Origin: Naegleria gruberi
Taxonomy: Eukaryota
Direction: 5' to 3' (one strand)
NCBI GenBank assembly: GCA_000004985.1
Contig: GG738954.1
DNA length: 21,721 nucleotides
The notes under the pieces were generated by a model, which made no database searches, had not been told where the DNA came from, and saw nothing but the letters and a program-made list of their open reading frames with translations. A program made the position numbers and the translations under genes. This document shows positions 4,401 through 21,721 of this stretch, one piece after another; position 1 is the first letter of the stretch, and every line of letters begins with the position of its first letter.

Positions 4401-5267
4401 NNNNNNNNNNNNNNNNNNNNNNNNNNNNNNNNNNNNNNNNNNNNNNNNNNNNNNNNNNNNNNNNNNNNNNNNNNNNNNNNNNNNNNNNNNNNNNNNNNNN
4501 NNNNNNNNNNNNNNNNNNNNNNNNNNNNNNNNNNNNNNNNNNNNNNNNNNNNNNNNNNNNNNNNNNNNNNNNNNNNNNNNNNNNNNNNNNNNNNNNNNNN
4601 NNNNNNNNNNNNNNNNNNNNNNNNNNNNNNNNNNNNNNNNNNNNNNNNNNNNNNNNNNNNNNNNNNNNNNNNNNNNNNNNNNNNNNNNNNNNNNNNNNNN
4701 NNNNNNNNNNNNNNNNNNNNNNNNNNNNNNNNNNNNNNNNNNNNNNNNNNNNNNNNNNNNNNNNNNNNNNNNNNNNNNNNNNNNNNNNNNNNNNNNNNNN
4801 NNNNNNNNNNNNNNNNNNNNNNNNNNNNNNNNNNNNNNNNNNNNNNNNNNNNNNNNNNNNNNNNNNNNNNNNNNNNNNNNNNNNNNNNNNNNNNNNNNNN
4901 NNNNNNNNNNNNNNNNNNNNNNNNNNNNNNNNNNNNNNNNNNNNNNNNNNNNNNNNNNNNNNNNNNNNNNNNNNNNNNNNNNNNNNNNNNNNNNNNNNNN
5001 NNNNNNNNNNNNNNNNNNNNNNNNNNNNNNNNNNNNNNNNNNNNNNNNNNNNNNNNNNNNNNNNNNNNNNNNNNNNNNNNNNNNNNNNNNNNNNNNNNNN
5101 NNNNNNNNNNNNNNNNNNNNNNNNNNNNNNNNNNNNNNNNNNNNNNNNNNNNNNNNNNNNNNNNNNNNNNNNNNNNNNNNNNNNNNNNNNNNNNNNNNNN
5201 NNNNNNNNNNNNNNNNNNNNNNNNNNNNNNNNNNNNNNNNNNNNNNNNNNNNNNNNNNNNNNNNNNN
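1457..5267. other. assembly gap (3811 N)
   Basis: Continuous run of n. All four ORFs in the track running through it (1378..5514 and 1382..5329 on the minus strand, 1391..5272 and 1407..6146 on the plus strand) are artefacts of translating N as X. Confidence 1.
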
Positions 5268-6146
5268 GTTGATTCACTCTCTGAGAATATTCCACAAATT
5301 GACTTGACCAACTTTTTAAATGAATACAAGAATGAGAAGGGAAGAGGTTTCGCCAGTAGAGGAAGAAGTTTAAAATCAATTTTGAGTGGAAATATTTCAG
5401 AAAAGGAATCTCAACGATTGGATAACTTGTTTGGTGTAGAGTATTTGGAGGATATTTATGATGAATTGAGAACTGGTGATGTCTTGTTGCATTCTGGAAA
5501 GGGAACTTTCTCAAAAGCTATTCAATTGGGATTTTCATCGACTTGGTCTCACTTGTCGATTATTATTAGAAATCCACCGAAAGAATTATTGGAATTGTAT
5601 AAGGTTCAAGTTGATGCTTCATCAAGATTTTCAACTGTTTTTGTTGCAGAATCTGAAACTGATACTGTGGACAATAAGGAAGGTGGTGGAATTCAATTAG
5701 TAGAATTGAGAAGGTGGTTTATGGATTATTTGGAAAGAGATCCAACTGATTTGTGTTGTTTGAGAAGATTGAACATTCCTTCAATGGATAATAGACCAAA
5801 GGATGAGAATATTGTGGATCAATTCCCAACACTTGTTGATTATTTGAAGATTTCCATTGATAAGAAATACGAAACTTCAAAATCTGAATTATTGAAATGT
5901 GTCATTAAGAGAAATACTCAATCCAATGATGCTAATGTATTCTGTTCTGAATTTGTGGCTGAATGCTATCTTAGAATGGGTTTATTGCCACAAAACACAA
6001 TTACCTGCAATTATGGACCTCGTGACTTTAGTCAGGAATCTAATTTGGTTAATACAGTTCTATTGAAAGGAGCCAACTTGACAAAAGAAAAGAGAATTCG
6101 AGTAAGAGAATGGGATGAAAAGAATGATTGGAATGTTCAACCATAA
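5268..6146 (+). CDS. 3' part of a gene (start codon is inside the gap) encoding a permuted papain-fold hydrolase domain of the YiiX/YaeF (C92) / NlpC-P60 superfamily type; putative cysteine amidase or peptidase.
   Basis: In-frame continuation of the real-sequence end of ORF 1407..6146, with no Met between the gap edge and the domain; stop TAA at 6144..6146. Motifs seen in the translation: GDVLLHSGKGTFSKAIQ...TWSHLSIIIRN (a His-containing strand) followed about 150 aa later by VFCSEFVAECYLRMGLLP (a nucleophile Cys in a C-S-E-[FL]-V context). The His-before-Cys order is characteristic of permuted NlpC/P60-like enzymes. Confidence 0.6.
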   Translation, partial: VDSLSENIPQIDLTNFLNEYKNEKGRGFASRGRSLKSILSGNISEKESQRLDNLFGVEYLEDIYDELRTGDVLLHSGKGTFSKAIQLGFSSTWSHLSIIIRNPPKELLELYKVQVDASSRFSTVFVAESETDTVDNKEGGGIQLVELRRWFMDYLERDPTDLCCLRRLNIPSMDNRPKDENIVDQFPTLVDYLKISIDKKYETSKSELLKCVIKRNTQSNDANVFCSEFVAECYLRMGLLPQNTITCNYGPRDFSQESNLVNTVLLKGANLTKEKRIRVREWDEKNDWNVQP

Positions 6147-6271: not shown

Positions 6272-7405
6272 CTAAAAATAATCATTTTGTTCTCTACTGT
6301 TTGAGTTAGAATCATCTTGTTCAAACAAAAAATCAAAGTCTGAATTAAGGGGAAAATTACCATTAGAACTTTCGTCTTGTTGATTGGGATCATATGCTAA
6401 TAGGTCAGTAATACATTCTTCGAACAATCTTTGAGGCGAAGAAATTAGATTTGGGAAGGAATTTGGACTTGGTGGTGCACTACTGGCAGCCATTTGAGAC
6501 ATGGCAGTTGGATACGTAGAATTCGGGATTCTTGGATCCATTAATGGGGTTGTTGGGATGAAATTTTGCATCACCGTATTGAAAGTTAGTGGTGTACTAG
6601 CAGATGGTGTCATTGGAACAAAGTTTTGCATTGGATTGACACTTGGTGGTGTAATAATATTAGGAACTAGTGGTGACAAAGAGTTTCCAGAAAGTGTTTG
6701 AGAATTATAAGATTGAATACTACCTGTATCATCACCAGAAGAGGAAGCTGCAACTACCTTCTTCTTTCTTGGTTTAGTCTTCTCACTGGTCTTTCTTTTA
6801 GTTCCAGATTTTGGCTCTTGATCTTCAATCATCGTTTCAGCAGAGGAACTAGAGGAAGCAGAAGCAGCAGCTCTCTTTCTAGGCTTTCTTTTCTTTCTGT
6901 TTGTTGTTACAGGTTCCAATCCACCATCAACATTAATTTCTTCTTCTTTTTCTTCTGACATTTCATCATCATCAGCAATCCATAGAGGTTCATCTTCACC
7001 ATTCAAATAGATGGCTTGAACCACTGATAAATTAGAATTATTCCTGACCACAGCCAGCCTTGTCTTCAACTTGATAACATGACCAAGGAGCACAATAATA
7101 ATATCACCCACTGCCTTTGTTGGGCACTTAACTTGACAAGCACCAAGTATCTTGGAAATTGTCATTTCAGCACGCATCTTGTTATCGCTAAAGTTGTTCT
7201 TCATCATGTACCAGCCTGATCTGTTTTGCAATGCATCAACCACAACCACTCTGATCTTGATGCCATCGAACAATTCCAATGAAACATGGGCCAATCCCTT
7301 CTTTCTAATAACAATTTTAAAAACAGGACGATGGGTAATTGGATCGTAAATAGTTTGTTCAAAGATTGGTTTATCAACGTTATTGACGTTATTGTTCTTG
7401 GTCAT
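6272..7405 (-). CDS. hypothetical nuclear protein, likely a transcription regulator: about 150-aa N-terminal globular domain of unrecognised family, an acidic stretch, two basic NLS-like clusters, an S/T/P-rich region with internal repeats, and an acidic/hydrophobic C-terminal tail.
   Basis: Intronless 377-aa ORF with ATG (complement of 7403..7405) and TAG stop (complement of 6272..6274). Features in the translation: basic clusters RKKRKPRKR and KRKTSEKTKPRKKK; a Ser run (AAASASSSSSA); a repeated motif MQNFVPMTPSASTP / MQNFIPTTPLMDP; and a C-terminal DFDFLFEQDD activation-domain-like tail. The plus-strand ORFs 6501..6701, 6698..6958 and 7152..7349 are antisense to this gene and are rejected. 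Confidence 0.7.
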   Translation of the reverse strand: MTKNNNVNNVDKPIFEQTIYDPITHRPVFKIVIRKKGLAHVSLELFDGIKIRVVVVDALQNRSGWYMMKNNFSDNKMRAEMTISKILGACQVKCPTKAVGDIIIVLLGHVIKLKTRLAVVRNNSNLSVVQAIYLNGEDEPLWIADDDEMSEEKEEEINVDGGLEPVTTNRKKRKPRKRAAASASSSSSAETMIEDQEPKSGTKRKTSEKTKPRKKKVVAASSSGDDTGSIQSYNSQTLSGNSLSPLVPNIITPPSVNPMQNFVPMTPSASTPLTFNTVMQNFIPTTPLMDPRIPNSTYPTAMSQMAASSAPPSPNSFPNLISSPQRLFEECITDLLAYDPNQQDESSNGNFPLNSDFDFLFEQDDSNSNSREQNDYF

Positions 7406-7676: not shown

Positions 7677-10405
7677 NNNNNNNNNNNNNNNNNNNNNNNN
7701 NNNNNNNNNNNNNNNNNNNNNNNNNNNNNNNNNNNNNNNNNNNNNNNNNNNNNNNNNNNNNNNNNNNNNNNNNNNNNNNNNNNNNNNNNNNNNNNNNNNN
7801 NNNNNNNNNNNNNNNNNNNNNNNNNNNNNNNNNNNNNNNNNNNNNNNNNNNNNNNNNNNNNNNNNNNNNNNNNNNNNNNNNNNNNNNNNNNNNNNNNNNN
7901 NNNNNNNNNNNNNNNNNNNNNNNNNNNNNNNNNNNNNNNNNNNNNNNNNNNNNNNNNNNNNNNNNNNNNNNNNNNNNNNNNNNNNNNNNNNNNNNNNNNN
8001 NNNNNNNNNNNNNNNNNNNNNNNNNNNNNNNNNNNNNNNNNNNNNNNNNNNNNNNNNNNNNNNNNNNNNNNNNNNNNNNNNNNNNNNNNNNNNNNNNNNN
8101 NNNNNNNNNNNNNNNNNNNNNNNNNNNNNNNNNNNNNNNNNNNNNNNNNNNNNNNNNNNNNNNNNNNNNNNNNNNNNNNNNNNNNNNNNNNNNNNNNNNN
8201 NNNNNNNNNNNNNNNNNNNNNNNNNNNNNNNNNNNNNNNNNNNNNNNNNNNNNNNNNNNNNNNNNNNNNNNNNNNNNNNNNNNNNNNNNNNNNNNNNNNN
8301 NNNNNNNNNNNNNNNNNNNNNNNNNNNNNNNNNNNNNNNNNNNNNNNNNNNNNNNNNNNNNNNNNNNNNNNNNNNNNNNNNNNNNNNNNNNNNNNNNNNN
8401 NNNNNNNNNNNNNNNNNNNNNNNNNNNNNNNNNNNNNNNNNNNNNNNNNNNNNNNNNNNNNNNNNNNNNNNNNNNNNNNNNNNNNNNNNNNNNNNNNNNN
8501 NNNNNNNNNNNNNNNNNNNNNNNNNNNNNNNNNNNNNNNNNNNNNNNNNNNNNNNNNNNNNNNNNNNNNNNNNNNNNNNNNNNNNNNNNNNNNNNNNNNN
8601 NNNNNNNNNNNNNNNNNNNNNNNNNNNNNNNNNNNNNNNNNNNNNNNNNNNNNNNNNNNNNNNNNNNNNNNNNNNNNNNNNNNNNNNNNNNNNNNNNNNN
8701 NNNNNNNNNNNNNNNNNNNNNNNNNNNNNNNNNNNNNNNNNNNNNNNNNNNNNNNNNNNNNNNNNNNNNNNNNNNNNNNNNNNNNNNNNNNNNNNNNNNN
8801 NNNNNNNNNNNNNNNNNNNNNNNNNNNNNNNNNNNNNNNNNNNNNNNNNNNNNNNNNNNNNNNNNNNNNNNNNNNNNNNNNNNNNNNNNNNNNNNNNNNN
8901 NNNNNNNNNNNNNNNNNNNNNNNNNNNNNNNNNNNNNNNNNNNNNNNNNNNNNNNNNNNNNNNNNNNNNNNNNNNNNNNNNNNNNNNNNNNNNNNNNNNN
9001 NNNNNNNNNNNNNNNNNNNNNNNNNNNNNNNNNNNNNNNNNNNNNNNNNNNNNNNNNNNNNNNNNNNNNNNNNNNNNNNNNNNNNNNNNNNNNNNNNNNN
9101 NNNNNNNNNNNNNNNNNNNNNNNNNNNNNNNNNNNNNNNNNNNNNNNNNNNNNNNNNNNNNNNNNNNNNNNNNNNNNNNNNNNNNNNNNNNNNNNNNNNN
9201 NNNNNNNNNNNNNNNNNNNNNNNNNNNNNNNNNNNNNNNNNNNNNNNNNNNNNNNNNNNNNNNNNNNNNNNNNNNNNNNNNNNNNNNNNNNNNNNNNNNN
9301 NNNNNNNNNNNNNNNNNNNNNNNNNNNNNNNNNNNNNNNNNNNNNNNNNNNNNNNNNNNNNNNNNNNNNNNNNNNNNNNNNNNNNNNNNNNNNNNNNNNN
9401 NNNNNNNNNNNNNNNNNNNNNNNNNNNNNNNNNNNNNNNNNNNNNNNNNNNNNNNNNNNNNNNNNNNNNNNNNNNNNNNNNNNNNNNNNNNNNNNNNNNN
9501 NNNNNNNNNNNNNNNNNNNNNNNNNNNNNNNNNNNNNNNNNNNNNNNNNNNNNNNNNNNNNNNNNNNNNNNNNNNNNNNNNNNNNNNNNNNNNNNNNNNN
9601 NNNNNNNNNNNNNNNNNNNNNNNNNNNNNNNNNNNNNNNNNNNNNNNNNNNNNNNNNNNNNNNNNNNNNNNNNNNNNNNNNNNNNNNNNNNNNNNNNNNN
9701 NNNNNNNNNNNNNNNNNNNNNNNNNNNNNNNNNNNNNNNNNNNNNNNNNNNNNNNNNNNNNNNNNNNNNNNNNNNNNNNNNNNNNNNNNNNNNNNNNNNN
9801 NNNNNNNNNNNNNNNNNNNNNNNNNNNNNNNNNNNNNNNNNNNNNNNNNNNNNNNNNNNNNNNNNNNNNNNNNNNNNNNNNNNNNNNNNNNNNNNNNNNN
9901 NNNNNNNNNNNNNNNNNNNNNNNNNNNNNNNNNNNNNNNNNNNNNNNNNNNNNNNNNNNNNNNNNNNNNNNNNNNNNNNNNNNNNNNNNNNNNNNNNNNN
10001 NNNNNNNNNNNNNNNNNNNNNNNNNNNNNNNNNNNNNNNNNNNNNNNNNNNNNNNNNNNNNNNNNNNNNNNNNNNNNNNNNNNNNNNNNNNNNNNNNNNN
10101 NNNNNNNNNNNNNNNNNNNNNNNNNNNNNNNNNNNNNNNNNNNNNNNNNNNNNNNNNNNNNNNNNNNNNNNNNNNNNNNNNNNNNNNNNNNNNNNNNNNN
10201 NNNNNNNNNNNNNNNNNNNNNNNNNNNNNNNNNNNNNNNNNNNNNNNNNNNNNNNNNNNNNNNNNNNNNNNNNNNNNNNNNNNNNNNNNNNNNNNNNNNN
10301 NNNNNNNNNNNNNNNNNNNNNNNNNNNNNNNNNNNNNNNNNNNNNNNNNNNNNNNNNNNNNNNNNNNNNNNNNNNNNNNNNNNNNNNNNNNNNNNNNNNN
10401 NNNNN
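7677..10405. other. assembly gap (2729 N)
   Basis: Continuous run of n. All three minus-strand gap ORFs are artefacts. Of the two plus-strand gap ORFs, only the real-sequence tail of 7644..10478 (10406 onward) is retained; 7618..10413 is an artefact. Confidence 1.
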
Positions 10406-11331: not shown

Positions 11332-14300
11332 ATGGAATCAACATTAGGCAGAAGATCATCTATTTCCACCTCTTCATCAGATGGTGGTTCTTCAATAACT
11401 TCTGCCTCTTTTGCCAGCTCCTTATTCAAAACCTTTAATGAATATCTATCAATGATGTATTTATGTAGCAAGATGAGGATGAACACCCTCACAAGGTTTA
11501 GCAACAGTAAAGGCAGCTATGTAGAAGGTTTGCCTGTAACAGTCCCTTGGAAGATACGACTGGCTAGATTGGCTATATCGTTATGGTTTTTATACATGTT
11601 GTGGATTGGAATTTGGTTACCTGCATTGACTTCTCATCAGGAGTATTCTAGTATACTTTCATCTAATAGTACCATAAATAATGAATATAATACTTCACCG
11701 TTTGGATTTGAAGGAGGATGGGTATTTAGAGTATTGAACTATCCACTCACTTTATCAACAGATGCCATTCCTTATGAGGGAATAATTGCACTTTCTGTCA
11801 TATTTACATTGATTTCATTGGTGAATATTATCTTGATGATTATTGGAATGAAGAAGAGATGTGAAGGAATTTACAAAATATTTGACAAGGTTGGGATGTA
11901 TTGTTCATTAGTAGTATCGTTTATTGGACCAGTTGCCTTATTTATTATGAGCAGTTTTGTTGATTGTAATCCAAATATTCAAATCAATGTCGAAGATCAG
12001 ACAGCAAGTGTTTCTGGATTGTCAAGATTTCCATCAGTTCAATGTTATTCTAAAACAAATACTATTTTAATTGTCATGAGTTTGATTGGAATGATGATTA
12101 CATTTGTGAGTTGGAGTTTCTCTGTGTTTTTATTGCCAATCAATACACCCAATGTTGGAATTCCTTTTGTGACGAAGGATAACTTTATATTGGCACCAAC
12201 TATTTGCACGATAGGATTCGAATTGTTAATCATATTCTTGATTCCACCGAATTACATGATGGGGAGAGCGATAGTTCATCTCATTTTGAGCATTTATCAA
12301 CATTCCACTCATCATTTACAGTTTACCATTTTATCATCGAATGATGAATTCACTCTATTTTGGAGTTGTTTGTGCAAGATTTGGAGTTAGTATTGGATTT
12401 TTGATTAGTTCATTGGTCAATTTAAATCTTTTGAGTGATTTGGGACTTGGAATGATGGGATTGAGTATTGGATTGGGAATTCTATTTTTCATTCTTGCTT
12501 TTACTGCTTTGGAAATTTACACAAGGTTGTGCTGCAGGCGAATTAGAAACATCTTTTCAAGAAAGATATCAGAATCCACAATCACTAACAGCAAGCAAGA
12601 CATCAACCTTTACTCAATAGTAGAAAAGGAAGCTCTTTCAATCTTTACTCTTTGTGAGCATGTTTCATCCAGAAGTTTGACTCTATTCTTGCAATCTACT
12701 GTTTGCCTAAAAGAACAAAACGGGTATAAGGAGGATGATGAATATATAGCACTGGACGATAAGTTGTTGGCAATATCCTTTGTCAAGTCTATTTCGCAAC
12801 AAAAATCTTTCGTCAATGCAGACATGTTGATAATTTCCGGAATGCTTATTAACTTTAATAGCAAAGAGGACAACAAGTATCAATTCGCCAGTTATCTTCT
12901 AGCAAAAGCATACAAACGAACCTCCAACACTATCAAGAAGTTAATCGTTTTAGAAAAACAAAAAGAAATTGAGATTGATTTGAATGAAGTGACCAAAACA
13001 AATATTGAAGTCAGAAATGCAATCACAGAGGTGGCTAAAAAGTTGGAAGAATTACGTATTGTTCATAGATCATTCTGGAAGGAAATGCTTAATGAAATGC
13101 CAAACGAAACCAAACTTTTACAAATTAATAGTAAGGCAACCGTATTATCCAAATTTTGTGAAAAATCCTTTTCCAACTTGATGAAGTCTCATAATCATGA
13201 CAAGACAGTAATCAGATTCTATGCAAAATATGTGGAGGAATTCAAGTTTGATAAGGAATTGTCGAATTCATTGTTTGAAGAAGCTAACCAGTTGGAAGAC
13301 GAAGAATCCAGATCAAGAAAGTATTCAATAATGAAATTACAACCAAATGAAACAAAGAAATTCAAAAATAAGGTAGCTCCATCATCTCCAAATTTAATGG
13401 ATGATATGAGTGTTACTGGAAGAGAAACCATGTTCGATTCTATGGGATCGCTCAGCATGAAAAAATTCTCTAATCAGCCAACTAACAATCCATTAAATGA
13501 GACAGATTTTGAAGGAGTAGAAAATGAAGGTATTGACAAGAAGGAATCATTTTTCAGAGCTGCCATCAATACTCCATTTCAATCAAAGTTGAAAATATCC
13601 ATCTTCCTTGGCCTTTCAGTGCTATTACATATTTGTATGATTGCAATATTTGTGCTAAGTATGGTATTTAGTGAAAAAGTTGTTTCTACTCCTCTTGTAT
13701 TGCAGAGTTGCATTACAGGCTCAACACCTGGCGCCTTGTTGAGATTTACGAGAATGAATCAAATTTTGACTGAGGTTTACGCAAATGAAGGACAACCTTG
13801 GTTACAGAACTCTACCAGGTATTACGAAATTAATAACTTTTTGAAAAATTACAAGAATAGATATTTGGAGCATAAGGGGTATTTGGAAACATTAATTTCC
13901 AATTCACAATCAGGAAAGTTTACAAGTAACATGTATACTGACTTTACAGAGAGAGCAAGTCCAATTTTAATTCCAATTTCAACAACAGACCCTAAATCTA
14001 TTGAATTTGTAAATACCTTCTCAAAGAATGTTTCAATGAGTGAAGTTTCTCAAGAATTCTTGCATCATGTTGAACAATTTTTGAACTTTGGAGAAAAGCA
14101 ATACAATGAAACAACAAAAAGTTACAGTTTCATGTATGTCTACTTGAATAGAAGATATTTAGCCGATAATTATCTCCAATTCTGTAGATCATTCCAGGAG
14201 AGCGAAAGAGCTAGTACTTTTGAACTGAATATCATACTCTCGAGCTATATTTTTGCTTCTTCTTCCGTAATGACGATGATTTACGTTATTTTCATTTTGA

Positions 14301-14887
14301 TTTCAAGGAGTGAGATGACTTGGTTCAGTAAGATCACATCTCTTTACAAGAAAATTCCAAAAGATTTTGTTGGAATAATTTATCACAAATTGGAAGAAAA
14401 GACAAAAGATGATGCCAAACATTTGAAGAAAAATCCTCTCTTGCAACCAAAAAATTTTACTTTAATACTGGCTATTTTGATAGTTGTAATATTCATGTTG
14501 TCTTCTGGTTTGATTTATTATGAAATTTCAATGAATATTTCAACTGCATCATCTGCCATTTACAATGTTGATTTGATGAGCGTCTTTTTGAGAACAGTTC
14601 ATAGAGTTACTATTAGATTAAATGAATTCTTCATTTATCTTACCCTGCCTTCTGGAAAATTCATTAACAGTCCATATTTAGTTTCGAATAATTCACAATT
14701 GCAAACAATGAAAACAGAAATCAGACAATTCATTGATTTGACTGCAACCATTTATGATCAGGTTATTTATGGCCAAGATGGAGTTACTTCTTCTCTTGTT
14801 GGGCAATATTCTGAAATTGACAAGATGATAACAGGTCAGTCCACATGCAGCAATTCCACAATTGATTACGAAATTAGCAATAATGGA
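11332..14887 (+). pseudogene. copy 1 of the giant membrane-sensor adenylyl-cyclase paralog family (8-TM N-terminal block, coiled coil, TM-bracketed loops). A +1 frameshift (extra g at about 12294) splits the reading frame: 11332..12390 in frame 1, then 12341..14887 in frame 2. The 3' end (PAS and cyclase) is missing at the 14888..15050 gap. Either a pseudogene or a sequencing error.
   Basis: The ATG at 11332 sits in an aaaag-aATGGA context like the copy-3 start. The N-terminal TM block from 11693 onward is about 93-95% identical at nucleotide level to copy 3 (20137 onward). At 12281..12300, copy 1 reads catctcattttgaGcatttatc where copy 3 reads catctcattttgacatttatc; one extra base shifts the frame and gives a stop at 12388..12390. 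The downstream frame (12341..14887) is collinear with copy 2 (15058..17589). The frame-1 ORF extension back to 11194 is not conserved in copy 3 and is taken to be 5' UTR. Confidence 0.6.
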
Positions 14888-15050
14888 NNNNNNNNNNNNN
14901 NNNNNNNNNNNNNNNNNNNNNNNNNNNNNNNNNNNNNNNNNNNNNNNNNNNNNNNNNNNNNNNNNNNNNNNNNNNNNNNNNNNNNNNNNNNNNNNNNNNN
15001 NNNNNNNNNNNNNNNNNNNNNNNNNNNNNNNNNNNNNNNNNNNNNNNNNN
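14888..15050. other. assembly gap (163 N) joining non-collinear parts of two paralogs
   Basis: Upstream of the gap, copy 1 ends at the position equivalent to copy 2 nt 17589 (the ...IDYEISNNG loop). Downstream, sequence resumes at the position equivalent to copy 1 nt 12338 / copy 3 nt 20778 (the ...YHRMMNSLYF junction). About 1.6 kb of copy 1 (its 3' part) plus an intergenic region plus about 1.1 kb of copy 2 (its 5' part) are unaccounted for. Confidence 1.
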
Positions 15051-18000
15051 TCATCGAATGATGAATTCACTCTATTTTGGAATTGTTTGTGCAAGATTTG
15101 GAGTGAGTATTGGATTTTTGATTAGCTCATTAGTCAATTTAAATCTTTTGAGTGATTTGGGTCTTGGAATGATGGGATTGAGTATTGGATTGGGAATTCT
15201 ATTTTTCATTCTTGCTTTTACTGCTTTGGAAATTTACACACTCGTAGTTTGCAGACAAATAAGAAATATTTTCAAAACCAAGATTAGTGCCTGTGAAATA
15301 AATGAGAGCAGAGCAGATTTATCACTTTACAACATTATTGAAAGAGAGGCAGTTTCCATTTTCATTGTTTGTGAACAATTATCTCTAAGACACTTGATGT
15401 TGTTTTTACAATTTTCAATTGGGCAAAATGTGAAACATCACTCCCCCGATCATTACGGTGTGACTATTGTCAGTGATCCATTAATGGCTATTGCTTTTGT
15501 GAAATCCATTTCTCAGCAGAAATCCTTCCTTAATACTGAAATGTTGCTCATTTCAAGTGTTTTGGTCAATTACATTTGGCAAGATGATCACAGATCTCAA
15601 TTTGCAAATTATCTACTGGCAAAGGCTCTTAAACATTGTCATCAAACGTTAAAGAGAGTTCTTATCACTGAAAAACAAAAAGAAATTGAAATTACACTTA
15701 ACGAGCTAACCAAGACAAATATGGAAGTAAGAAACACAATTACAGAATTAGAAATTACCCTTGCTGAGCTTCGAATTGTTCATAAATCATTCTGGAAGGA
15801 AATGTTGAACGATATTCCAAACGAAACCAAACTTTCACAAATTAATAGCAGAGCTTCTGTCCTAACACTATTCTGTGACCAGAATTTCCTCAATCTTACC
15901 AAAGCTCACAGTCATGATAAGACAGTGATTCGTTTTTATGCATCCTACCTTGAGGAATTCAAATTCGATAAGGAACTATCTACTTCATTGTTTGAAGAAG
16001 CTGCTGCAATGGAAGAAGAAGAATCGAGATCAAAGAATGTCAATCATCACAATCCACAATCATATTACGAAGCAAAGAAATTCAAGAATAAGATTGTGCC
16101 CTCATCCAATGTGGAAATGTCCACCAATAATGAAGATATTAGTACTGAAAGAGATGAAAGTGGTTCAGCCCTAAATGGAAAAAGTCAATTCAATGGGAAT
16201 GAGATGGATTTCGAAGGTGTCGAAAATCAAGGAATTGACAAGAAGGAAACCTTCTTCAGAACTGCCATCAATGCTCCATTCCAATCCAAACTGAGAATCT
16301 CGATCTTTCTATTCTTGTCAGTTTTGATGCATGTCTTGTTAATTGTCATTTTCATTCTGAGTATTGTTTATAATGAGAGAGTTGTTTCTACTCCTCTTGT
16401 ATTGCAGAGTTGCATTCCTGGTTCAACACCTGGTGCATTACTAAGAGTTGCAAGAATGAATCAAATTTTGACTGAGGTTTACGCAAATGAAGGACAATCA
16501 TGGTTAAAGAACTCGAGTAGAATGTATGAATTGAATTATTTCACATCAACCTTCAGAAATCGATATTTGGAGCATAAGGGGTATTTGGAAACATTAATTT
16601 CCAATTCACAATCAGGTAAATTTACAAGTAACATGTATAATGACTTTACAGAGAGAGCAAGTCCAATTTTAATTCCAATTTCAACAACAGATCCTAAATC
16701 GATTGAATTTGTAAACACCTTCTCAAAGAATGTTTCAATGAGTGAAGTTTCTCAAGAATTCTTGCATCATGTTGAGCAATTTTTGAACTTTGGAGAAAAG
16801 CAATACAATGAAACAACAAAGAGTTACAGTTTCATGTACATTTATTTAAATAGAAGATATTTAGCCGATAATTATCTCCAATTCTGCAAGTCATTCCAGG
16901 AAAGCGAAAGAGCCAACACTCACCAGTTGAATATTATTTTACTGGCCTATATTTTCACATCCTCCTCAGTAATGACGATGATTTACGTTATTTTCATTTT
17001 GATTTCAAGGAGTGAGATGACATGGTTCAGTAAGATCACATCTCTTTACAAGAAAATTCCAAAAGATTTTGTTGGAATAATTTATCACAAATTAGAAGAA
17101 AAGACAAAAGATGATGCCAAGCACTTGAAGAAAAATCCTCTCTTGCAACCAAAGGCCTTTTCTCTGATATTGGCACTTCTAATTGTGACAGTTTTCATGT
17201 TGTCTTCTGGTTTGATTTATTATGAAATTTCAATGAATATTTCAACTGCTTCATCTGCCATTTACAATGTTGATTTGCTGAGTGTATTTTTGAGAACAGT
17301 TCATAGAGTTACCATTAGACTGAATGAATTGTTTATTTACTTGTCATTGCCATCTGGAAAATTCATTAACAGTCCATATTTAGTTTCGAATAATTCACAA
17401 TTGCAAACAATGAAAACAGAAATCAGACAATTCATTGATTTGACAGCAACCATTTATGATCAGGTTATTTATGGACAAGATGGAATAACAACACCACTCG
17501 TTGGAAAATACTCCAAATTAGATAAGATTATTACTGGTCTATCGACTTGCACCAATTCCTCAATTGACTATAATTGGAAATCTAATGGAAACAAAATTAT
17601 TGGACAAAGTAATGAATTGTTAAAAGATTGTTATGGTCTTCAAAAGTACATGTCTACATTCACAATTCTTGCAGGACAAGTGAGTGAAAAGTTCTTCAAT
17701 CCTTCCTATGCTTCGACACAATCTGAAGAAGCATTCGCAGAATTGTTAACATTATTTAATATGTGTGATATGGTTTATGACAAGTTTAGAGATTTTCTCA
17801 CAACATTGGTCAGTTTGACATCTGTTCCTTCCATTACAATTTCAATTGTCTTGATTTTCGGTATAACTTCAATGCTCATATTACAATATATGATTTTCAT
17901 CAGTTTCCAAACCTATGATCACGAAATAACCAATATGAAAGCATTCTTGAATTATCTGTCCACAGAATTCATAGAATCAAATGATGGACTCAAGAGTTTT

Positions 18001-19206
18001 GCCTTGTACAACTCTATTGGAACGAACTATTTGACTGGACGAAAGCTAAAACAATCCTCAGCTACAGATCAAGATTCTTTGAAGAAATTAATGAGTTCAA
18101 TGGTAGATGGTGCACTATTAGCAAACGAAAGTGGAGATATCATTCTTTTCAACGGACCAGCTCAGAACATGTTCGGAAAGTCAATTTCTGATGTTCTGGG
18201 AACAAACTTTATGCATTTATTTGATGAGCACTCTGGTGAAAAGTTGTCCAACATTTTGAAAACAATCAAGAGTGAAATTGATGAAAATGTCAAACATGGA
18301 GATGTTATTGAATTGGAATGTGTTAGAAAGAATTCCACAAAGTTTCCAGCCATGGTTACTATCTTTGTTTCGAGAATTTCTGGCAGCTCTTACAAGGGAA
18401 AGAGTAACTCAATGGTTGTTTCATGCTTTATGAGAGATATCACTCCAGAGAAGAAGCAAAATTCACTTCTAGCAGAGGAGAAGAAAAATTCAGAAAATTT
18501 ATTGAGAAACATCTTGCCAGATGCTGTTGCAAGCAAGTTGAAATCAGGTGAGACATTTATTGCTGAGAGATTTAGTGATATTACTTGTTTCTTTAGTGAT
18601 ATGGTTGGTTTTACGAAAATGTCAAGTGGAATGAATCCAAGTGAATTGGTTTTGATGTTGTCATCAATTGTGAATGGATTTGATGATTTGACAGATGTTT
18701 ATTCATTGGAAAAGATCAAGACAATTGGTGATGCTTATTTTTGTGTTGGAGGTTTACATAATAATCCACAATCTGATCATCCTGAAAGAACATTGAGATT
18801 TGCAATTGATACATTTCAAGTGATTAGAAATTATAATATTGAACATCCTCAAAATCAATTGAATATTCGAGTTGGAATCAATACAGGATCAGTTGTTGCT
18901 GGTGTAATTGGAAAGAAGAAGTTTGCCTATGATTTATGGGGTGATACCATCAATACTGCTTCTCGAATGGAATCAACTTCAATGGCAGGAAGAATTCAAA
19001 TTTCCAGATCAACCTATCAGAGAGTCTATGATATTGGATTTGAATTTGAACAGAGAAGTGTTGAAGTGAAAGGAAAAGGTGTTTGTGAAACCTATTTATT
19101 GAAGGATAAACATCATGCAACGTCAATAATTCCAGTAACAGAATCACAAATTCTCAAGAAGGAACAAAGCAACGAAGAAAAATTAAGCGAACAATTAGAT
19201 CAATAA
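15051..19206 (+). CDS. copy 2: membrane-sensor adenylyl cyclase, 5'-truncated by the gap (open frame from 15052; first in-frame ATG at 15058; 1382 codons to TAA at 19204..19206). Order of parts: TM pair, coiled coil, TM, about 180-aa loop, TM, TM, about 190-aa loop, TM, PAS, class III cyclase domain.
   Basis: A single uninterrupted 4.1-kb ORF. Hydrophobic helices at about 15058..15250, 16290..16380, 16925..17010, 17160..17230 and 17800..17900. Heptad-rich segment EKQKEIEITLNELTKTNMEVRNTITELEITLAELRIVHKSF at about 15660..15790. C-terminal cyclase motifs: FFSDMVGFT (metal-binding Asp), KIKTIGDAYFCVGGL (second metal Asp plus specificity Lys), YDLWGDTINTASRMEST (specificity Asp, and the Asn/Arg transition-state pair). 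Confidence 0.85.
18080..18440 (+). other. PAS sensor domain within copy 2
   Basis: LKKLMSSMVDGALLANESGDIILFNGPAQNMFGKSISDVLGTNFMHLFDE...GDVIELECVRKNSTKFPAMVTIFVSR. The PAS-like core pattern is hydrophobic - N - x - A - x - x - hydrophobic - hydrophobic - G, followed by a beta-rich segment, placed between the last TM helix and the cyclase domain. Confidence 0.55.
18550..19100 (+). other. class III nucleotidyl cyclase catalytic domain (CYC/CHD), with residues predicting adenylyl cyclase specificity and homodimeric function
   Basis: Both metal-binding Asp residues are present (FSDMVGF and IGDAY). The base-specifying pair is Lys (KIKTIGD) and Asp (YDLWG), not the Glu/Cys pair of guanylyl cyclases. 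The Asn (TINTA) and Arg (SRME) transition-state residues are also present. Having every catalytic residue in one domain is typical of cyclases that act as homodimers. Confidence 0.9.
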
Positions 19207-19703: not shown

Positions 19704-21721
19704 ATGGAGCCATCATCGATAGGGGGAGGATCATCAGTTTCAGGCTCCACACAAACATCCAATGCCTCTTCAAGTTCCTTGTCTGGAAACATCTTTAGAA
19801 CAGTTAATGAATTTCTCACAAATTTGTACATGTCGGGAAAGTTGAGAATGAATGGTTTAACGAGACAATATACATCAATGAATAGCAGTTTGTTAGGTGC
19901 TGGTGTTTCTAGTGCTGGATTTTATGAGAGCTTTAATAGGAAACCTTCGTGGAATGTAAGGTTGTGCAGAGGTTTACTGTTTGTCTGGTTTTTGTATATC
20001 ATGTGGATTGGAGTGTGGTTACCTGGATTAACTTCTCATCAGGATTATTCACAAATATATTCTTCATCATCTTCTGTTTCATCATCAAGCAATTCAGGAA
20101 ATCAAACGAGTAGTATAGTAAATAATGAATTTAACACTTCACCGTTTGGATTTGAAGGAGGATGGGTATTTAGAGTATTGAATTATCCACTCACTTTATC
20201 AACAGATGCCATTCCTTATGAGGGAATAATTGCCTTGTCTGTCCTATTTACATTGATTTCATTGGTGAATATTATCTTGATGATTATTGGAATGAAGAAG
20301 AGATATGGAAATGTTTACAAATTCTTGGATAAAGTGGCGATGTGTTGGGGAATGATTGTATTATTCAGTGGACCAGTTGCCTTGTTTATTATGAGCAGTT
20401 TTATTGATTGTAATCCAAATATTAGGATTGAAATTGAGAATCAGACAGCAAGTGTTTCTGGATTGTCAAGATTTCCAACAGTTCAGTGCTATTCAGCTGA
20501 TAATATAGTATTACTAGTTCTGAGTTTGATTGGAATGATGATTACATTTGTGAGTTGGGGTTTCTCTGTGTTTTTATTGCCAATCAATACACCCAATGTT
20601 GGAATTCCTTTTGTGACGAAGGATAACTTTATATTGGCACCAACCATTTGCACGATAGGATTGGAATTGTTAATCATGTTCTTGATTCCACCGAATTTCA
20701 TGATGGGGAGAGCGATTGTTCATCTCATTTTGACATTTATCAACATTCCACTCATCATTTACAGTTTACCATTTTATCATCGAATGATGAATTCACTCTA
20801 TTTTGGAATTGTTTGTGCAAGATTTGGAGTGAGTATTGGAGTATTGATTAGCTCATTGGTCAATTTAAATCTGTTGAGTGATTTGGGACTTGGAATGATG
20901 GGATTGAGTATTGGATTGGGAATTCTATTTTTCATTCTTGCTTTTACTGCTTTGGAGATTTACACGCTCGTTGTTTGCAGACAAATAAGAAATATTTTCA
21001 AAACCAAGATTAGTGCCTGTGAAATAACTGAGAGCAGAGCAGATTTATCCCTGTACAACATTATTGAAAGAGAGGCAGTTTCCATTTTCATTGTTTGTGA
21101 ACAATTATCTCTGAGACACTTGATGTTGTTTTTACAATTTTCAATTGGGAAAAATGTGAAACATCACTCCCCCGATCATTACGGTGTGACTATTGTCAGT
21201 GATCCATTGATGGCTATTGCTTTTGTGAAATCCATTTCTCAGCAGAAATCCTTCCTTAATACTGAAATGTTGCTCATTTCAAGTGTTTTGGTCAACTACA
21301 TTTGGCAAGATGATCACAGATCTCAATTTGCAAATTATCTACTAGCAAAGGCTCTTAAACATTGTCATCAAACTTTAAAGAGAGTTCTTATCACTGAAAA
21401 ACAAAAAGAAATTGAAATTACACTCAACGAGCTAACCAAGACAAATATGGAAGTAAGAAACACAATTACAGAATTAGAAATAACCCTTGCTGAGCTTCGA
21501 ATTGTTCATAAATCATTCTGGAAGGAAATGTTGAACGATATTCCAAACGAAACCAAACTTTCACAAATTAATAGCAGAGCTTCTGTCCTAACACTATTCT
21601 GTGACCAGAATTTCCTCAATCTTACCAAAGCTCACAGTCACGATAAGACAGTGATACGTTTTTATGCGTCCTACCTTGAGGAATTCAAATTCGATAAGGA
21701 ACTATCTACTTCATTGTTTGA
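19704..21721 (+). CDS. copy 3: membrane-sensor adenylyl cyclase paralog, 5' complete (ATG 19704..19706), open to the window end (3' partial). N-terminal Ser-rich segment, then the 8-TM block, then the start of the coiled-coil region.
   Basis: Translated codon by codon from 19704 to 21721 in frame (positions divisible by 3) with no stop. It is missing from the supplied ORF track, apparently because that track requires a terminal stop. About 97-98% nucleotide identity to copy 2 over 20785..21721 versus 15058..15994 (about 22 mismatches in about 940 nt). N-terminal TM block 93-95% identical to copy 1. ORF 20648..20851 (+) and ORF 20489..20701 (-) are off-frame or antisense and are rejected. Confidence 0.8.
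   Translation, partial: MEPSSIGGGSSVSGSTQTSNASSSSLSGNIFRTVNEFLTNLYMSGKLRMNGLTRQYTSMNSSLLGAGVSSAGFYESFNRKPSWNVRLCRGLLFVWFLYIMWIGVWLPGLTSHQDYSQIYSSSSSVSSSSNSGNQTSSIVNNEFNTSPFGFEGGWVFRVLNYPLTLSTDAIPYEGIIALSVLFTLISLVNIILMIIGMKKRYGNVYKFLDKVAMCWGMIVLFSGPVALFIMSSFIDCNPNIRIEIENQTASVSGLSRFPTVQCYSADNIVLLVLSLIGMMITFVSWGFSVFLLPINTPNVGIPFVTKDNFILAPTICTIGLELLIMFLIPPNFMMGRAIVHLILTFINIPLIIYSLPFYHRMMNSLYFGIVCARFGVSIGVLISSLVNLNLLSDLGLGMMGLSIGLGILFFILAFTALEIYTLVVCRQIRNIFKTKISACEITESRADLSLYNIIEREAVSIFIVCEQLSLRHLMLFLQFSIGKNVKHHSPDHYGVTIVSDPLMAIAFVKSISQQKSFLNTEMLLISSVLVNYIWQDDHRSQFANYLLAKALKHCHQTLKRVLITEKQKEIEITLNELTKTNMEVRNTITELEITLAELRIVHKSFWKEMLNDIPNETKLSQINSRASVLTLFCDQNFLNLTKAHSHDKTVIRFYASYLEEFKFDKELSTSLF

What the first reader, a model, noticed from the sequence alone, without database searches (positions are those of the whole stretch)
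11693..14887. Mosaic identity between copy 1 and copies 2/3: near-identical tracts flanking a strongly diverged segment, suggesting gene conversion
Copy 1 11693..12530 is about 93-95% identical at nucleotide level to copy 3 20137..20970, including third codon positions and runs of more than 50 identical bases. Copy 1 about 12534..13690 (coiled coil and first TM region) is far more diverged from copy 2 about 15250..16390, with many amino-acid replacements and indels, for example LCCRRIRNIFSRKISESTITNSKQD against LVVCRQIRNIFKTKISACEINESRAD. From 13861 to 14887, copy 1 is again 90-97% identical to copy 2 16564..17589, covering the second half of loop 1, two TM helices and loop 2. Sharp switches between about 70% and about 95% identity within one gene pair are the signature of ectopic gene conversion between tandem paralogs. 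Purifying selection at protein level would not keep synonymous sites identical. The homogenised tracts are the N-terminal TM block and the putative sensing loops; the coiled-coil/linker segment escapes.
Basis: seen in the sequence. Interest (0 to 1): 0.6.

Follow-up and report, generated by a model that had tools for sequence, protein, structure and literature searches.

The report
Patchwork gene conversion among Naegleria cyclase paralogs
Three neighbouring copies of a membrane-bound adenylate cyclase gene in the amoeba Naegleria gruberi have swapped stretches of DNA, so one copy is a patchwork of young and old sequence; this is a real but ordinary example of gene conversion, and it sits in a poorly assembled, mis-annotated scaffold.

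Summary
The window is a complete 21,721-bp scaffold of the Naegleria gruberi NEG-M draft genome, and its N runs are assembly gaps. It holds three paralogs of a receptor-type class III adenylate cyclase (8-TM head, TmcB-TPR region, 4 more TM helices with two large loops, PAS, cyclase).

Copy 1 against copies 2 and 3 alternates between tracts of 95-100% identity and segments of 55-67% identity.

- Synonymous divergence is 0.12-0.29 in high tracts and 0.85 to saturated in low segments.
- Identity to the N. lovaniensis ortholog is flat (36-41%) across all parts, so differing constraint does not explain the pattern.
- Site patterns switch topology between segments (Fisher p=1.7e-7).
- A fourth paralog, NAEGRDRAFT_71008 on another scaffold, has a copy-1 head and a copy-2/3 body (p=4e-50).

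Best explanation: ectopic gene conversion or recombination between an old "alpha" lineage and a young "beta" lineage. The direction and the number of events are unresolved.

Caveats: copy 1 and copy 2 are joined only across an unsized gap. The annotated model NAEGRDRAFT_76300 is a fusion artefact. Copy 1 carries a 1-nt frameshift that may be an assembly error.

This is a known kind of process and of low-to-moderate interest.

The parts
11332..12291 (+). Copy 1 head: the N-terminal block of about 8 TM helices, 'type-1/alpha' head. It is an open frame from the ATG at 11332.
   Evidence: tblastn of P0001 aa 1-320 gives 98.4% identity. Translation. Hydropathy TM map.
12292..12292 (+). A single extra base (A) in copy 1 that shifts the frame. 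Copy 1 reads TTGAGCATTT, copy 3 reads TTGACATTT, and P0001 encodes Ser-Phe (the TTGAGCTTT spelling is inferred from the protein, since its DNA could not be fetched). It is either a pseudogenising mutation or a consensus artefact from merged paralog reads.
   Evidence: The c1/c3 alignment has one gap column here.
12293..14887 (+). Copy 1 body: last head helices, TmcB-TPR region, TM9, loop 1, TM10, TM11 and part of loop 2. It is cut off by the assembly gap, so the PAS and cyclase parts are not assembled.
   Evidence: Pfam TPR_TmcB hit, E=2.6e-14. Open frame with no stops. TM map.
11332..11674 (+). Low segment, copy 1 vs copy 3 (19704-20118): 56% nt identity with indels, dS 1.6. P0001 is 99% identical to copy 1 here.
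11675..11860 (+). High tract, copy 1 vs copy 3 (20119-20304): 96.2% identity. dS is 0.12 for 11689-11838.
11861..12076 (+). Mixed zone, copy 1 vs copy 3: three low patches (11861-11924, 11980-11995, 12042-12076; 37-61% identity) separated by two short high tracts. dS is 0.57 for 11839-12088.
12077..12523 (+). High tract shared by all copies: c1 vs c3 96.6%, and c1 vs c2 97.4% from 12335 on. The three copies form a star here. The head/body switch of the fourth paralog P0001 falls in this tract.
12524..13859 (+). Main low ('alpha') segment of copy 1 vs copies 2/3/P0001: 57-63% nt and 60% aa identity, synonymous sites saturated. It covers the TmcB-TPR region, TM9 and the first part of loop 1. It contains two 100%-identical islands (13678-13714, 13751-13795) and one weakly elevated stretch (13058-13131, 90.5%).
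13860..14211 (+). High tract, copy 1 vs copy 2 (16562-16913): 95.2% identity. dS is 0.22 for 13861-14170.
14212..14266 (+). Low patch: 58% identity. pS is 0.76 for 14171-14274.
14267..14451 (+). High tract: 97.8% identity. For 14275-14430, dS is 0.16 and dN is 0.
14452..14491 (+). Low patch: 55% identity.
14492..14617 (+). High tract: 96.0% identity.
14618..14650 (+). Low patch: 67% identity. It appears only with some HMM settings.
14651..14782 (+). High tract: 98.5% identity.
14783..14887 (+). Low patch running into the gap: 66% identity. dS is 1.6 for 14771-14887.
14888..15050 (.). Assembly gap of 163 N between the copy 1 contig and the copy 2/3 contig. About 3.2 kb would be needed here if copies 1 and 2 are both complete.
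   Evidence: Protein records P0019, P0020 and P0021 give a contig length of 21721, equal to the window.
15051..19206 (+). Copy 2 ('beta' body): it starts right after the gap at the equivalent of copy 1 position 12334, so its head is not assembled. It has the TmcB-TPR region, 4 TM helices, PAS, a class III cyclase domain and a stop at 19204-19206.
   Evidence: Pfam Guanylate_cyc 6.9e-57, PAS_9 9e-15, TPR_TmcB 2.9e-13. Alignment to AC9 catalytic domains.
19704..21721 (+). Copy 3: its own 'type-3' head plus a beta body, as an open frame that runs off the scaffold end. It lies 497 nt downstream of the copy 2 stop. It is annotated as the partial protein P0020.

Best explanation
These are paralogs of one Naegleria gruberi gene for a multi-pass membrane adenylate cyclase (8-TM head, TmcB-type TPR region, four more TM helices with two roughly 190-aa loops, PAS domain, class III cyclase domain).

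Two sequence lineages exist. 'Alpha' now survives only in copy 1, as its middle and several short patches. Its head type is also found in the fourth paralog, NAEGRDRAFT_71008. 'Beta' is carried by copies 2 and 3 and by the body of NAEGRDRAFT_71008. Alpha and beta split long ago: synonymous sites are saturated and aa identity is 60%. The split still came after N. gruberi separated from N. lovaniensis.

More recently, at dS of about 0.1-0.2, homologous recombination copied stretches of 40-450 nt from one lineage into the other without reciprocal exchange. This is ectopic gene conversion. It was either several events or one event with patchy heteroduplex repair or template switching. This is about the time the beta copies duplicated. 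The result is that copy 1 is a patchwork and NAEGRDRAFT_71008 is an alpha-head/beta-body hybrid.

Shown: the mosaic, its presence at synonymous sites, the topology switches, and the flat ortholog conservation.

Inferred: the mechanism, the timing, and the direction. The preferred direction is that an old alpha gene was partly overwritten by beta, because this needs no unseen donor.
For: - The identity profile alternates between 95-100% and 55-67% with abrupt borders, and this is robust to HMM settings.
- dS is 0.12-0.29 in high tracts and 0.85 to saturated in low segments. dN/dS is well below 1 wherever it can be computed.
- Third-position differences are 0.12 vs 0.54 when tracts are defined from positions 1+2 only (Fisher p=5e-39 and 3e-34).
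- Local aa difference and local synonymous difference correlate (rho 0.86, p=7e-9).
- Permutation of sites gives p<=1e-4.
- Ortholog control: N. lovaniensis is 36-41% identical in head, middle and tail alike, and is equidistant from alpha and beta.
- Triple site patterns are a 3/5/2 star in 12334-12523 and 217 vs 9 in 12524-13057 (Fisher p=1.7e-7).
- The fourth paralog groups with copy 1 in the head (89:5) and with copy 3 in the middle (0:101), p=4e-50.
- High-tract divergences are homogeneous (3.1%, chi-square p=0.22). They are indistinguishable from the copy 2 vs copy 3 divergence of 2.3%.
- The short alpha patches (33-64 nt) lie between high tracts of 126-185 nt. Single Sanger reads would span several borders, so the fine mosaic cannot come from a wrong join of contigs (inference).
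Against: - All DNA comes from one small draft scaffold made of four short contigs. No reads and no independent assembly could be examined. No independent alpha-type sequence exists in the protein or metagenome collections.
- The donor, the recipient and the number of events cannot be determined.
- GC3 is not raised in the high tracts (0.29 vs 0.36), so there is no GC-biased conversion signature.
- The fourth paralog is available only as protein.
- The frameshift at 12292 looks like a merge of two paralog spellings. This hints that reads of more than one copy were co-assembled in the 12077-12523 tract.
Confidence: 0.78

Rival explanations
1. Same process, opposite direction. Copy 1 is a young beta duplicate from the same duplication burst as copies 2 and 3. 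It later imported alpha patches (1.3 kb plus several of 33-105 nt) from an old alpha paralog that is lost, unassembled or hidden in a gap.
For: - All high tracts have one divergence (about 3%), equal to the copy 2 vs copy 3 divergence.
- Site patterns in the high tract are star-like.
Both are expected if copy 1 is simply a fourth product of the beta burst.
Against: - It needs a donor that is not seen anywhere. Protein searches find alpha sequence only on this scaffold.
- The alpha-type head, including its diverged 5' 115 codons, is present in two genes. This fits an alpha gene that still exists as copy 1.
Confidence: 0.3
2. Assembly artefact. The mosaic is produced by co-assembly or chimeric joining of Sanger reads from several near-identical paralogs or haplotypes in a poorly covered 21.7-kb leftover scaffold.
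For: - The scaffold is 31% gap and consists of four contigs of 1.5-6.7 kb.
- Copy 1 ends and copy 2 begins at a gap, and copy 2 starts 42 nt after the copy 1 frameshift.
- That frameshift looks like a merge of the AGC and ACA spellings.
- The annotated model across the gap is an evident fusion.
- The neighbouring gene has a 96.5%-identical twin on the 508-kb scaffold, so the scaffold may be a haplotig or duplicate.
Against: - Reads 40% divergent cannot be merged, so the alpha sequence is real.
- Alpha patches of 33-64 nt sit inside high tracts shorter than a read, so the borders must lie within single reads.
- In the high tracts copy 1 differs from every other known copy by 2-5% at its own sites, so it is not borrowed from them.
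- A chimeric join in a high tract still requires the alpha gene to carry a near-identical tract there.

This rival can affect which head belongs to which body, the adjacency of copies 1 and 2, and the frameshift. It cannot remove the mosaic.
Confidence: 0.07
3. No exchange at all. The copies are of one age, and strong purifying selection keeps some parts identical while others evolve fast or under diversifying selection.
For: High tracts have low dN/dS (0 to 0.35). They include TM helices and loops that could be constrained.
Against: - Synonymous divergence differs several-fold or more between tracts.
- Low segments also have dN/dS well below 1 where it is measurable.
- The ortholog shows no extra conservation of the high tracts.
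- Topology switches between segments.
Confidence: 0.02
4. Copies 1 and 2 are not two genes. They are an internal tandem duplication of about 2.7 kb inside one very long gene, as in the annotated 2187-aa model NAEGRDRAFT_76300.
For: - The stated gap is only 163 nt.
- The offset between copy 1 and copy 2 is a constant 2702-2717 nt.
- A gene model was built this way.
Against: - The two bodies are in different frames across the gap (12335 is frame 2, 15052 is frame 1), so an ad hoc intron is needed.
- No homolog has such a duplicated architecture: the fourth paralog, N. lovaniensis and Willaertia proteins are 1404-1740 aa, and the N. fowleri model is 824 aa.
- Gap sizes in repeats are unreliable.

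Even if this were true, the mosaic and its explanation would stand.
Confidence: 0.05

Closest known systems
Interlocus (ectopic) gene conversion in tandem gene families, e.g. human gamma-globin and red/green opsin genes and CYP21A2/CYP21A1P (from general knowledge, not tested here)
   Same: Paralogs show tracts of tens to hundreds of bases that are near-identical at synonymous sites. These tracts are bordered abruptly by old, diverged sequence, and phylogenies differ by segment.
   Different: The organism is a heterolobosean amoeba and the gene is a receptor-type adenylate cyclase. The patchwork is unusually fine (at least 9 tracts in 3.5 kb), and all tracts have one apparent age. Donor and recipient are unknown.
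Mosaic products of a single recombination event: patchy mismatch repair of heteroduplex DNA, or template switching during break-induced replication or synthesis-dependent strand annealing, as described in yeast (from general knowledge)
   Same: Many alternating donor/recipient patches with a single age, as the homogeneous 3% divergence of all high tracts suggests.
   Different: Nothing here shows a single event. Alpha and beta are about 40% diverged in the low segments, which is far beyond what usually supports heteroduplex formation. Any such event must have started in already similar tracts.
Segmental gene conversion that builds mosaic VSG genes in Trypanosoma brucei, a distant relative within Discoba. 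PMC3170485 describes VSG switching by RAD51-dependent gene conversion.
   Same: A surface or membrane protein gene family whose members are rebuilt from pieces of paralogs.
   Different: There is no evidence here of a programmed, recurrent or expression-linked process. Only four copies are involved, and the divergence dates the exchange to evolutionary time rather than somatic time.
Class III transmembrane adenylate cyclases (e.g. mammalian AC9, PDB 7pd4) and Dictyostelium TmcB/TmcC proteins (Pfam PF25474)
   Same: The cyclase domain aligns to both AC9 catalytic halves. It keeps both metal-binding Asp residues, the adenine-specifying Lys and Asp, and the Asn/Arg pair on a single chain. The TPR_TmcB and PAS_9 domain hits are above Pfam cut-offs.
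   Different: There is one catalytic domain per chain, so a homodimer is expected. The membrane part has an 8+4 TM layout with a TmcB-TPR insert, and a PAS domain precedes the cyclase. This architecture is seen here only in Naegleria and Willaertia.

Membership tests
Ectopic gene conversion between paralogs | Abrupt alternation of near-identical and diverged tracts between paralogs, beyond chance | tested here: met
   Sliding windows and HMM segmentation. Permutation p<=1e-4.
Ectopic gene conversion between paralogs | The contrast holds at synonymous sites (different ages, not different constraint) | tested here: met
   dS 0.12-0.29 vs 0.85 to saturated. Third-position differences 0.12 vs 0.54 with tracts defined from positions 1+2 only, p=5e-39.
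Ectopic gene conversion between paralogs | High tracts are not intrinsically more conserved between species | tested here: met
   N. lovaniensis ortholog identity is 0.40-0.41 (head), 0.36-0.38 (middle) and 0.37-0.38 (tail).
Ectopic gene conversion between paralogs | Segment-specific phylogenetic incongruence | tested here: met
   3/5/2 vs 217/2/7 site patterns, Fisher p=1.7e-7. P0001 groups with copy 1 in the head (89:5) and with copy 3 in the middle (0:101), p=4e-50.
Ectopic gene conversion between paralogs | Non-reciprocal transfer with an identifiable donor and recipient | not testable with these tools
   There is only one alpha carrier and no outgroup close enough. The DNA of the fourth copy is not retrievable.
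Ectopic gene conversion between paralogs | GC-biased composition of converted tracts (a frequent correlate, not obligatory) | tested here: not met
   GC3 is 0.29-0.30 in high tracts and 0.33-0.37 in low segments of copies 1 and 2.
Ectopic gene conversion between paralogs | The mosaic is present on single DNA molecules (not an assembly product) | not testable with these tools
   No reads or second assembly are available. Metagenome scans found nothing. The only argument is that patch sizes are shorter than a read.
Tandemly arrayed paralogs | Copies adjacent, head to tail, on one contiguous sequence | tested here: inconclusive
   Copies 2 and 3 are contiguous with a 497-nt spacer. Copy 1 is joined to copy 2 only across 163 N, where about 3187 nt are expected.
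Class III adenylate cyclase | Guanylate_cyc catalytic domain above the Pfam cut-off, with metal-binding Asp x2, substrate-specifying Lys and Asp, and transition-state Asn and Arg | tested here: met
   PF00211 at 192 bits against a cut-off of 21.9. The alignment to AC9 C1 and C2 shows FSDMVGFT, IGDAY, KIKTIGD, YDLWGD and TINTASRM. The meaning of these residues is from established knowledge. This applies to copy 2 only, because the cyclase parts of copies 1 and 3 are not in the window.
TmcB/TmcC-like membrane proteins (Pfam PF25474) | TPR_TmcB domain above the gathering score | tested here: met
   50.3 bits for copy 2 and 53.6 bits for copy 1, against a cut-off of 27.

The most novel reading that the evidence does not exclude
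The very fine, single-age patchwork could be the footprint of a recurrent segmental-conversion process that reshuffles the membrane and loop modules of Naegleria's greatly expanded sensor-cyclase repertoire. That would be a diversity-generating mechanism comparable to mosaic VSG formation in trypanosomes, rather than incidental concerted evolution. Alternatively, it could be a usable marker of meiotic-type heteroduplex repair in an organism whose sex has never been observed.
Probability: 0.04. Interest if true: 0.6.

Novelty: new member of a known kind. Interest (0 to 1): 0.25.

Why it matters
The practical value is the largest.
- The annotated protein NAEGRDRAFT_76300 (XP_002668778, 2187 aa) is a fusion of two paralogs across an assembly gap and should not be used as a real architecture.
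- This scaffold is a close duplicate or haplotig of part of a 508-kb scaffold.
- Copy number and phylogenies of Naegleria cyclases built from whole-gene alignments will be misleading, because different parts of these genes have different histories.

Biologically, it is a clean, statistically strong case of homologous exchange between diverged paralogs in N. gruberi. It adds to indirect evidence that this amoeba has active recombination. It does not reveal a new mechanism.

Tried and rejected
- Fetching the source DNA of the fourth paralog and its neighbour with the look-up of encoding contigs: not on record.
- Searching for independent alpha-type sequence: the protein search returned only this scaffold's own copy 3 model. 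An exact-match scan of metagenomes for the 12523/12524 junction found nothing. A peptide-pattern scan of metagenomes found nothing.
- A single-breakpoint max-chi-square test and a longest-run test on four-fold sites gave only modest p values: 0.03 and 0.21 for c1-c2, 0.0005 and 0.06 for c1-c3. A single breakpoint does not suit a many-tract mosaic, and few sites qualify. These were replaced by the block-variance test and the positions-1+2-defined test.
- The GC-biased conversion signature is absent.
- Polarising events by shared amino-acid states in high tracts (c1=c2 against P0001 4, c1=P0001 against c2 0, c2=P0001 against c1 9) involved too few sites to decide.
- Flank synteny with N. lovaniensis: none within 10 kb.
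- Intron explanation for the frame change at 12292: rejected. Copy 3 and P0001 read straight through, and copy 1 differs by one extra base.
- Literature: no paper held describes this locus or gene conversion in Naegleria cyclases. The N. gruberi genome paper is not held.
Full report
**What the window is.** The window has three N runs: 1457-5267, 7677-10405 and 14888-15050. The best protein match of the long ORF 15058-19206 is a Naegleria gruberi predicted protein (P0001, NAEGRDRAFT_71008, 1740 aa, 98% identity), which lies on a 508,457-bp contig. Its 90% cluster holds a second member, P0019 (NAEGRDRAFT_76300, 2187 aa), from a contig of exactly 21,721 bp, the length of the window. P0020 (a partial model of copy 3) and P0021 (ORF 6272-7405, minus strand) are also on a 21,721-bp contig. 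The window is therefore a whole small scaffold of the N. gruberi NEG-M draft, made of four contigs. The N runs are scaffold gaps whose stated sizes are only estimates.

**The gene.**
- Copy 2 (15051-19206) has TPR_TmcB, PAS/PAS_9 and Guanylate_cyc domains above the Pfam cut-offs.
- The cyclase domain aligns to both catalytic halves of mammalian AC9. It keeps both metal-binding Asp residues, the Lys and Asp that specify ATP, and the Asn/Arg pair on one chain (the meaning of the residues is from established knowledge of class III cyclases). A homodimeric adenylate cyclase is the likely activity.
- Hydropathy gives about 8 TM helices in the head (aa 80-400), a soluble TmcB-TPR region, then TM9, a roughly 190-aa loop, TM10, a short loop, TM11, a second roughly 190-aa loop and TM12 before the PAS domain.
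- Homologs with this architecture appear only in N. lovaniensis (44%), Willaertia magna (27-32%) and, as a short model, N. fowleri. In N. lovaniensis the gene is single-copy within 10 kb either side, and the flanks are not syntenic.

**Layout of the copies.**
- Copy 1 starts at the ATG at 11332. It reads through the head to 12291 and has one extra base at 12292 (TTGAGC-A-TTT) that shifts the frame. It then stays open to the gap at 14887.
- Copy 2 starts immediately after the gap at the equivalent of copy 1 position 12334, so its head is missing.
- Copy 3 starts at the ATG at 19704, 497 nt after the copy 2 stop, and runs off the scaffold end.
- If copies 1 and 2 are both complete genes, the gap must hold about 3187 nt, not 163.
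- The annotated model P0019 begins at 12344. It runs through the copy 1 body, jumps the gap by an 'intron' and continues with the copy 2 body. It is an annotation artefact.
- The extra base at 12292 looks like the union of two spellings: AGC (Ser, as in P0001) and ACA (Thr, as in copy 3). The copy 2 contig starts 42 nt further on. This suggests that reads from more than one copy were merged there (inference).

**Check of the observation.** Sliding windows and a two-state HMM (robustness) show that the two 'high' blocks are themselves patchworks.
- Against copy 3: 11675-11860 (96.2%), 11925-11979, 11996-12041 and 12077-12522 (96.6%).
- Against copy 2: 12335-12523 (97.4%), 13678-13714 and 13751-13795 (100%), 13860-14211 (95.2%), 14267-14451 (97.8%), 14492-14617 (96.0%) and 14651-14782 (98.5%).
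- Between these lie segments of 16-535 nt at 37-69% identity.
- Copies 2 and 3 are uniformly 97.7% identical over the 945 nt they share.

**Is it age or constraint?**
- By Nei-Gojobori estimates, dS is 0.12-0.29 in high tracts and 0.85 to saturated in low segments, including the short patches. dN/dS is well below 1 wherever dS is measurable.
- To avoid circularity, codons were classed from positions 1 and 2 only. Third-position differences are then 0.12 vs 0.54 (Fisher p=5e-39) for c1-c2 and 0.07 vs 0.54 (p=3e-34) for c1-c3.
- Local amino-acid difference and local synonymous difference correlate (rho 0.86).
- Permuting sites within codon positions never reaches the observed block variance in 10,000 trials.
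- The N. lovaniensis ortholog is 36-41% identical in head, middle and tail alike, so the high tracts are not specially conserved parts of the protein. The ortholog is equidistant from the copy 1 middle and the copy 2 middle. The two lineages (called alpha and beta here) therefore split within the N. gruberi line, but long ago.

**Topology switches.**
- In 12334-12523 the three copies form a star: 3, 5 and 2 sites for the three possible pairings. In 12524-13057, 217 sites group copy 2 with copy 3 against 9 for the other two pairings (Fisher p=1.7e-7).
- At protein level, the fourth paralog P0001 groups with copy 1 in the head (89 sites to 5, including the diverged first 115 codons). It groups with copy 3 in the middle (101 to 0; p=4e-50).
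- At least one of these genes is therefore a recombinant, with a breakpoint inside the shared high tract 12077-12523.

**Relation to the other scaffold.** The neighbouring gene P0021 (6272-7405, minus strand) has a twin, P0022, on the same 508-kb contig as P0001. The twin is 327/339 identical outside gaps. This scaffold is therefore a close duplicate, or a diverged haplotype, of that region. The main locus seems to carry a single alpha-head/beta-body gene. This is what an unequal crossover between an alpha gene and a downstream beta gene would leave (inference; its DNA could not be fetched).

**Mechanism.** The best-supported reading is ectopic gene conversion or recombination between an old alpha lineage and a young beta lineage.
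- All high tracts have the same divergence (pooled 3.1%, chi-square p=0.22), and this is not distinguishable from the copy 2 vs copy 3 divergence.
- The exchanges therefore date to about the time of the beta duplications. They could be several events in a short period, or one event with patchy heteroduplex repair or template switching.
- The direction is open. I prefer 'alpha gene partly overwritten by beta' because no other alpha donor exists in any searched collection. The star-like patterns fit the reverse direction equally well.
- There is no GC-bias signature.
- Tract borders do not follow domain borders. The idea that selection protects the linker is not supported beyond the bare fact that the longest alpha stretch covers the TmcB-TPR region and TM9.

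**Assembly artefact as a rival.**
- It cannot create the mosaic. Alpha and beta low segments are too diverged to be co-assembled.
- Several alpha patches and the high tracts between them fit within one Sanger read.
- In high tracts copy 1 has its own private differences from every other copy.
- It can, however, affect which head belongs to which body, the adjacency of copies 1 and 2, and the frameshift.

**Comparison with what is known, and verdict.** This is interlocus gene conversion of the familiar kind, in a new organism and gene family. The papers held do not mention it. The practical by-products are the correction of a fused gene model and a warning about whole-gene phylogenies of these cyclases.

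Noticed in passing
window 12344-19206 (across 14888-15050): The public gene model NAEGRDRAFT_76300 / XP_002668778 (2187 aa) is a fusion of the copy 1 body and the copy 2 body, bridged over the assembly gap by an invented intron. It lacks the copy 1 head because of the frameshift.
   Followed up: yes
window 12277-12300: Copy 1 has one extra base (A at 12292). The spelling AGCA looks like the union of AGC (Ser, as in the fourth paralog) and ACA (Thr, as in copy 3). The copy 2 contig begins 42 nt downstream. This may be a consensus artefact from merged paralog reads rather than a real pseudogene.
   Followed up: partly
window 6272-7405 (- strand): An intronless 377-aa ORF (P0021) with an acidic and Ser/Lys-rich middle and only sub-threshold Pfam hits. 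It has a twin (P0022, 339 aa, 327/339 identical outside gaps) on the same 508-kb scaffold as the fourth cyclase paralog. The 32-aa gap between them may be a differing intron call. This implies that the scaffold is a segmental duplicate or haplotig.
   Followed up: partly
window 5268-6146 (+ strand): An ORF emerging from the first gap has a borderline match to Peptidase_C92 (permuted papain-like amidase, YaeF/YiiX): E=5.7e-6, 26.9 bits against a cut-off of 27.
   Followed up: no
window 1457-5267, 7677-10405, 14888-15050: 31% of the scaffold is N. The four contigs are only 1.5-6.7 kb long, so every long-range statement about this scaffold rests on mate-pair links.
   Followed up: partly
window 19704-20118 vs 11332-11674: The first ~115 codons of copy 3 and copy 1 are only 47% identical. 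Copy 3 has a Ser-rich insertion (VSSSSNSGNQTSSI) and an 11-aa insertion. The upstream regions of the two copies are unrelated.
   Followed up: partly
window 19100-19206: The C-terminal tail of copy 2 after KDKHHA (28 aa) differs entirely from the Gln-rich 48-aa tail of the fourth paralog. Only a weak 50% match over 22 aa was found in the window.
   Followed up: partly
L001 10001-15364 (N. lovaniensis PYSW02000034.1): The single-copy N. lovaniensis ortholog spans 5364 nt for 1614 aa, so its model has about 500 nt of introns. The N. gruberi copies read as uninterrupted ORFs.
   Followed up: no
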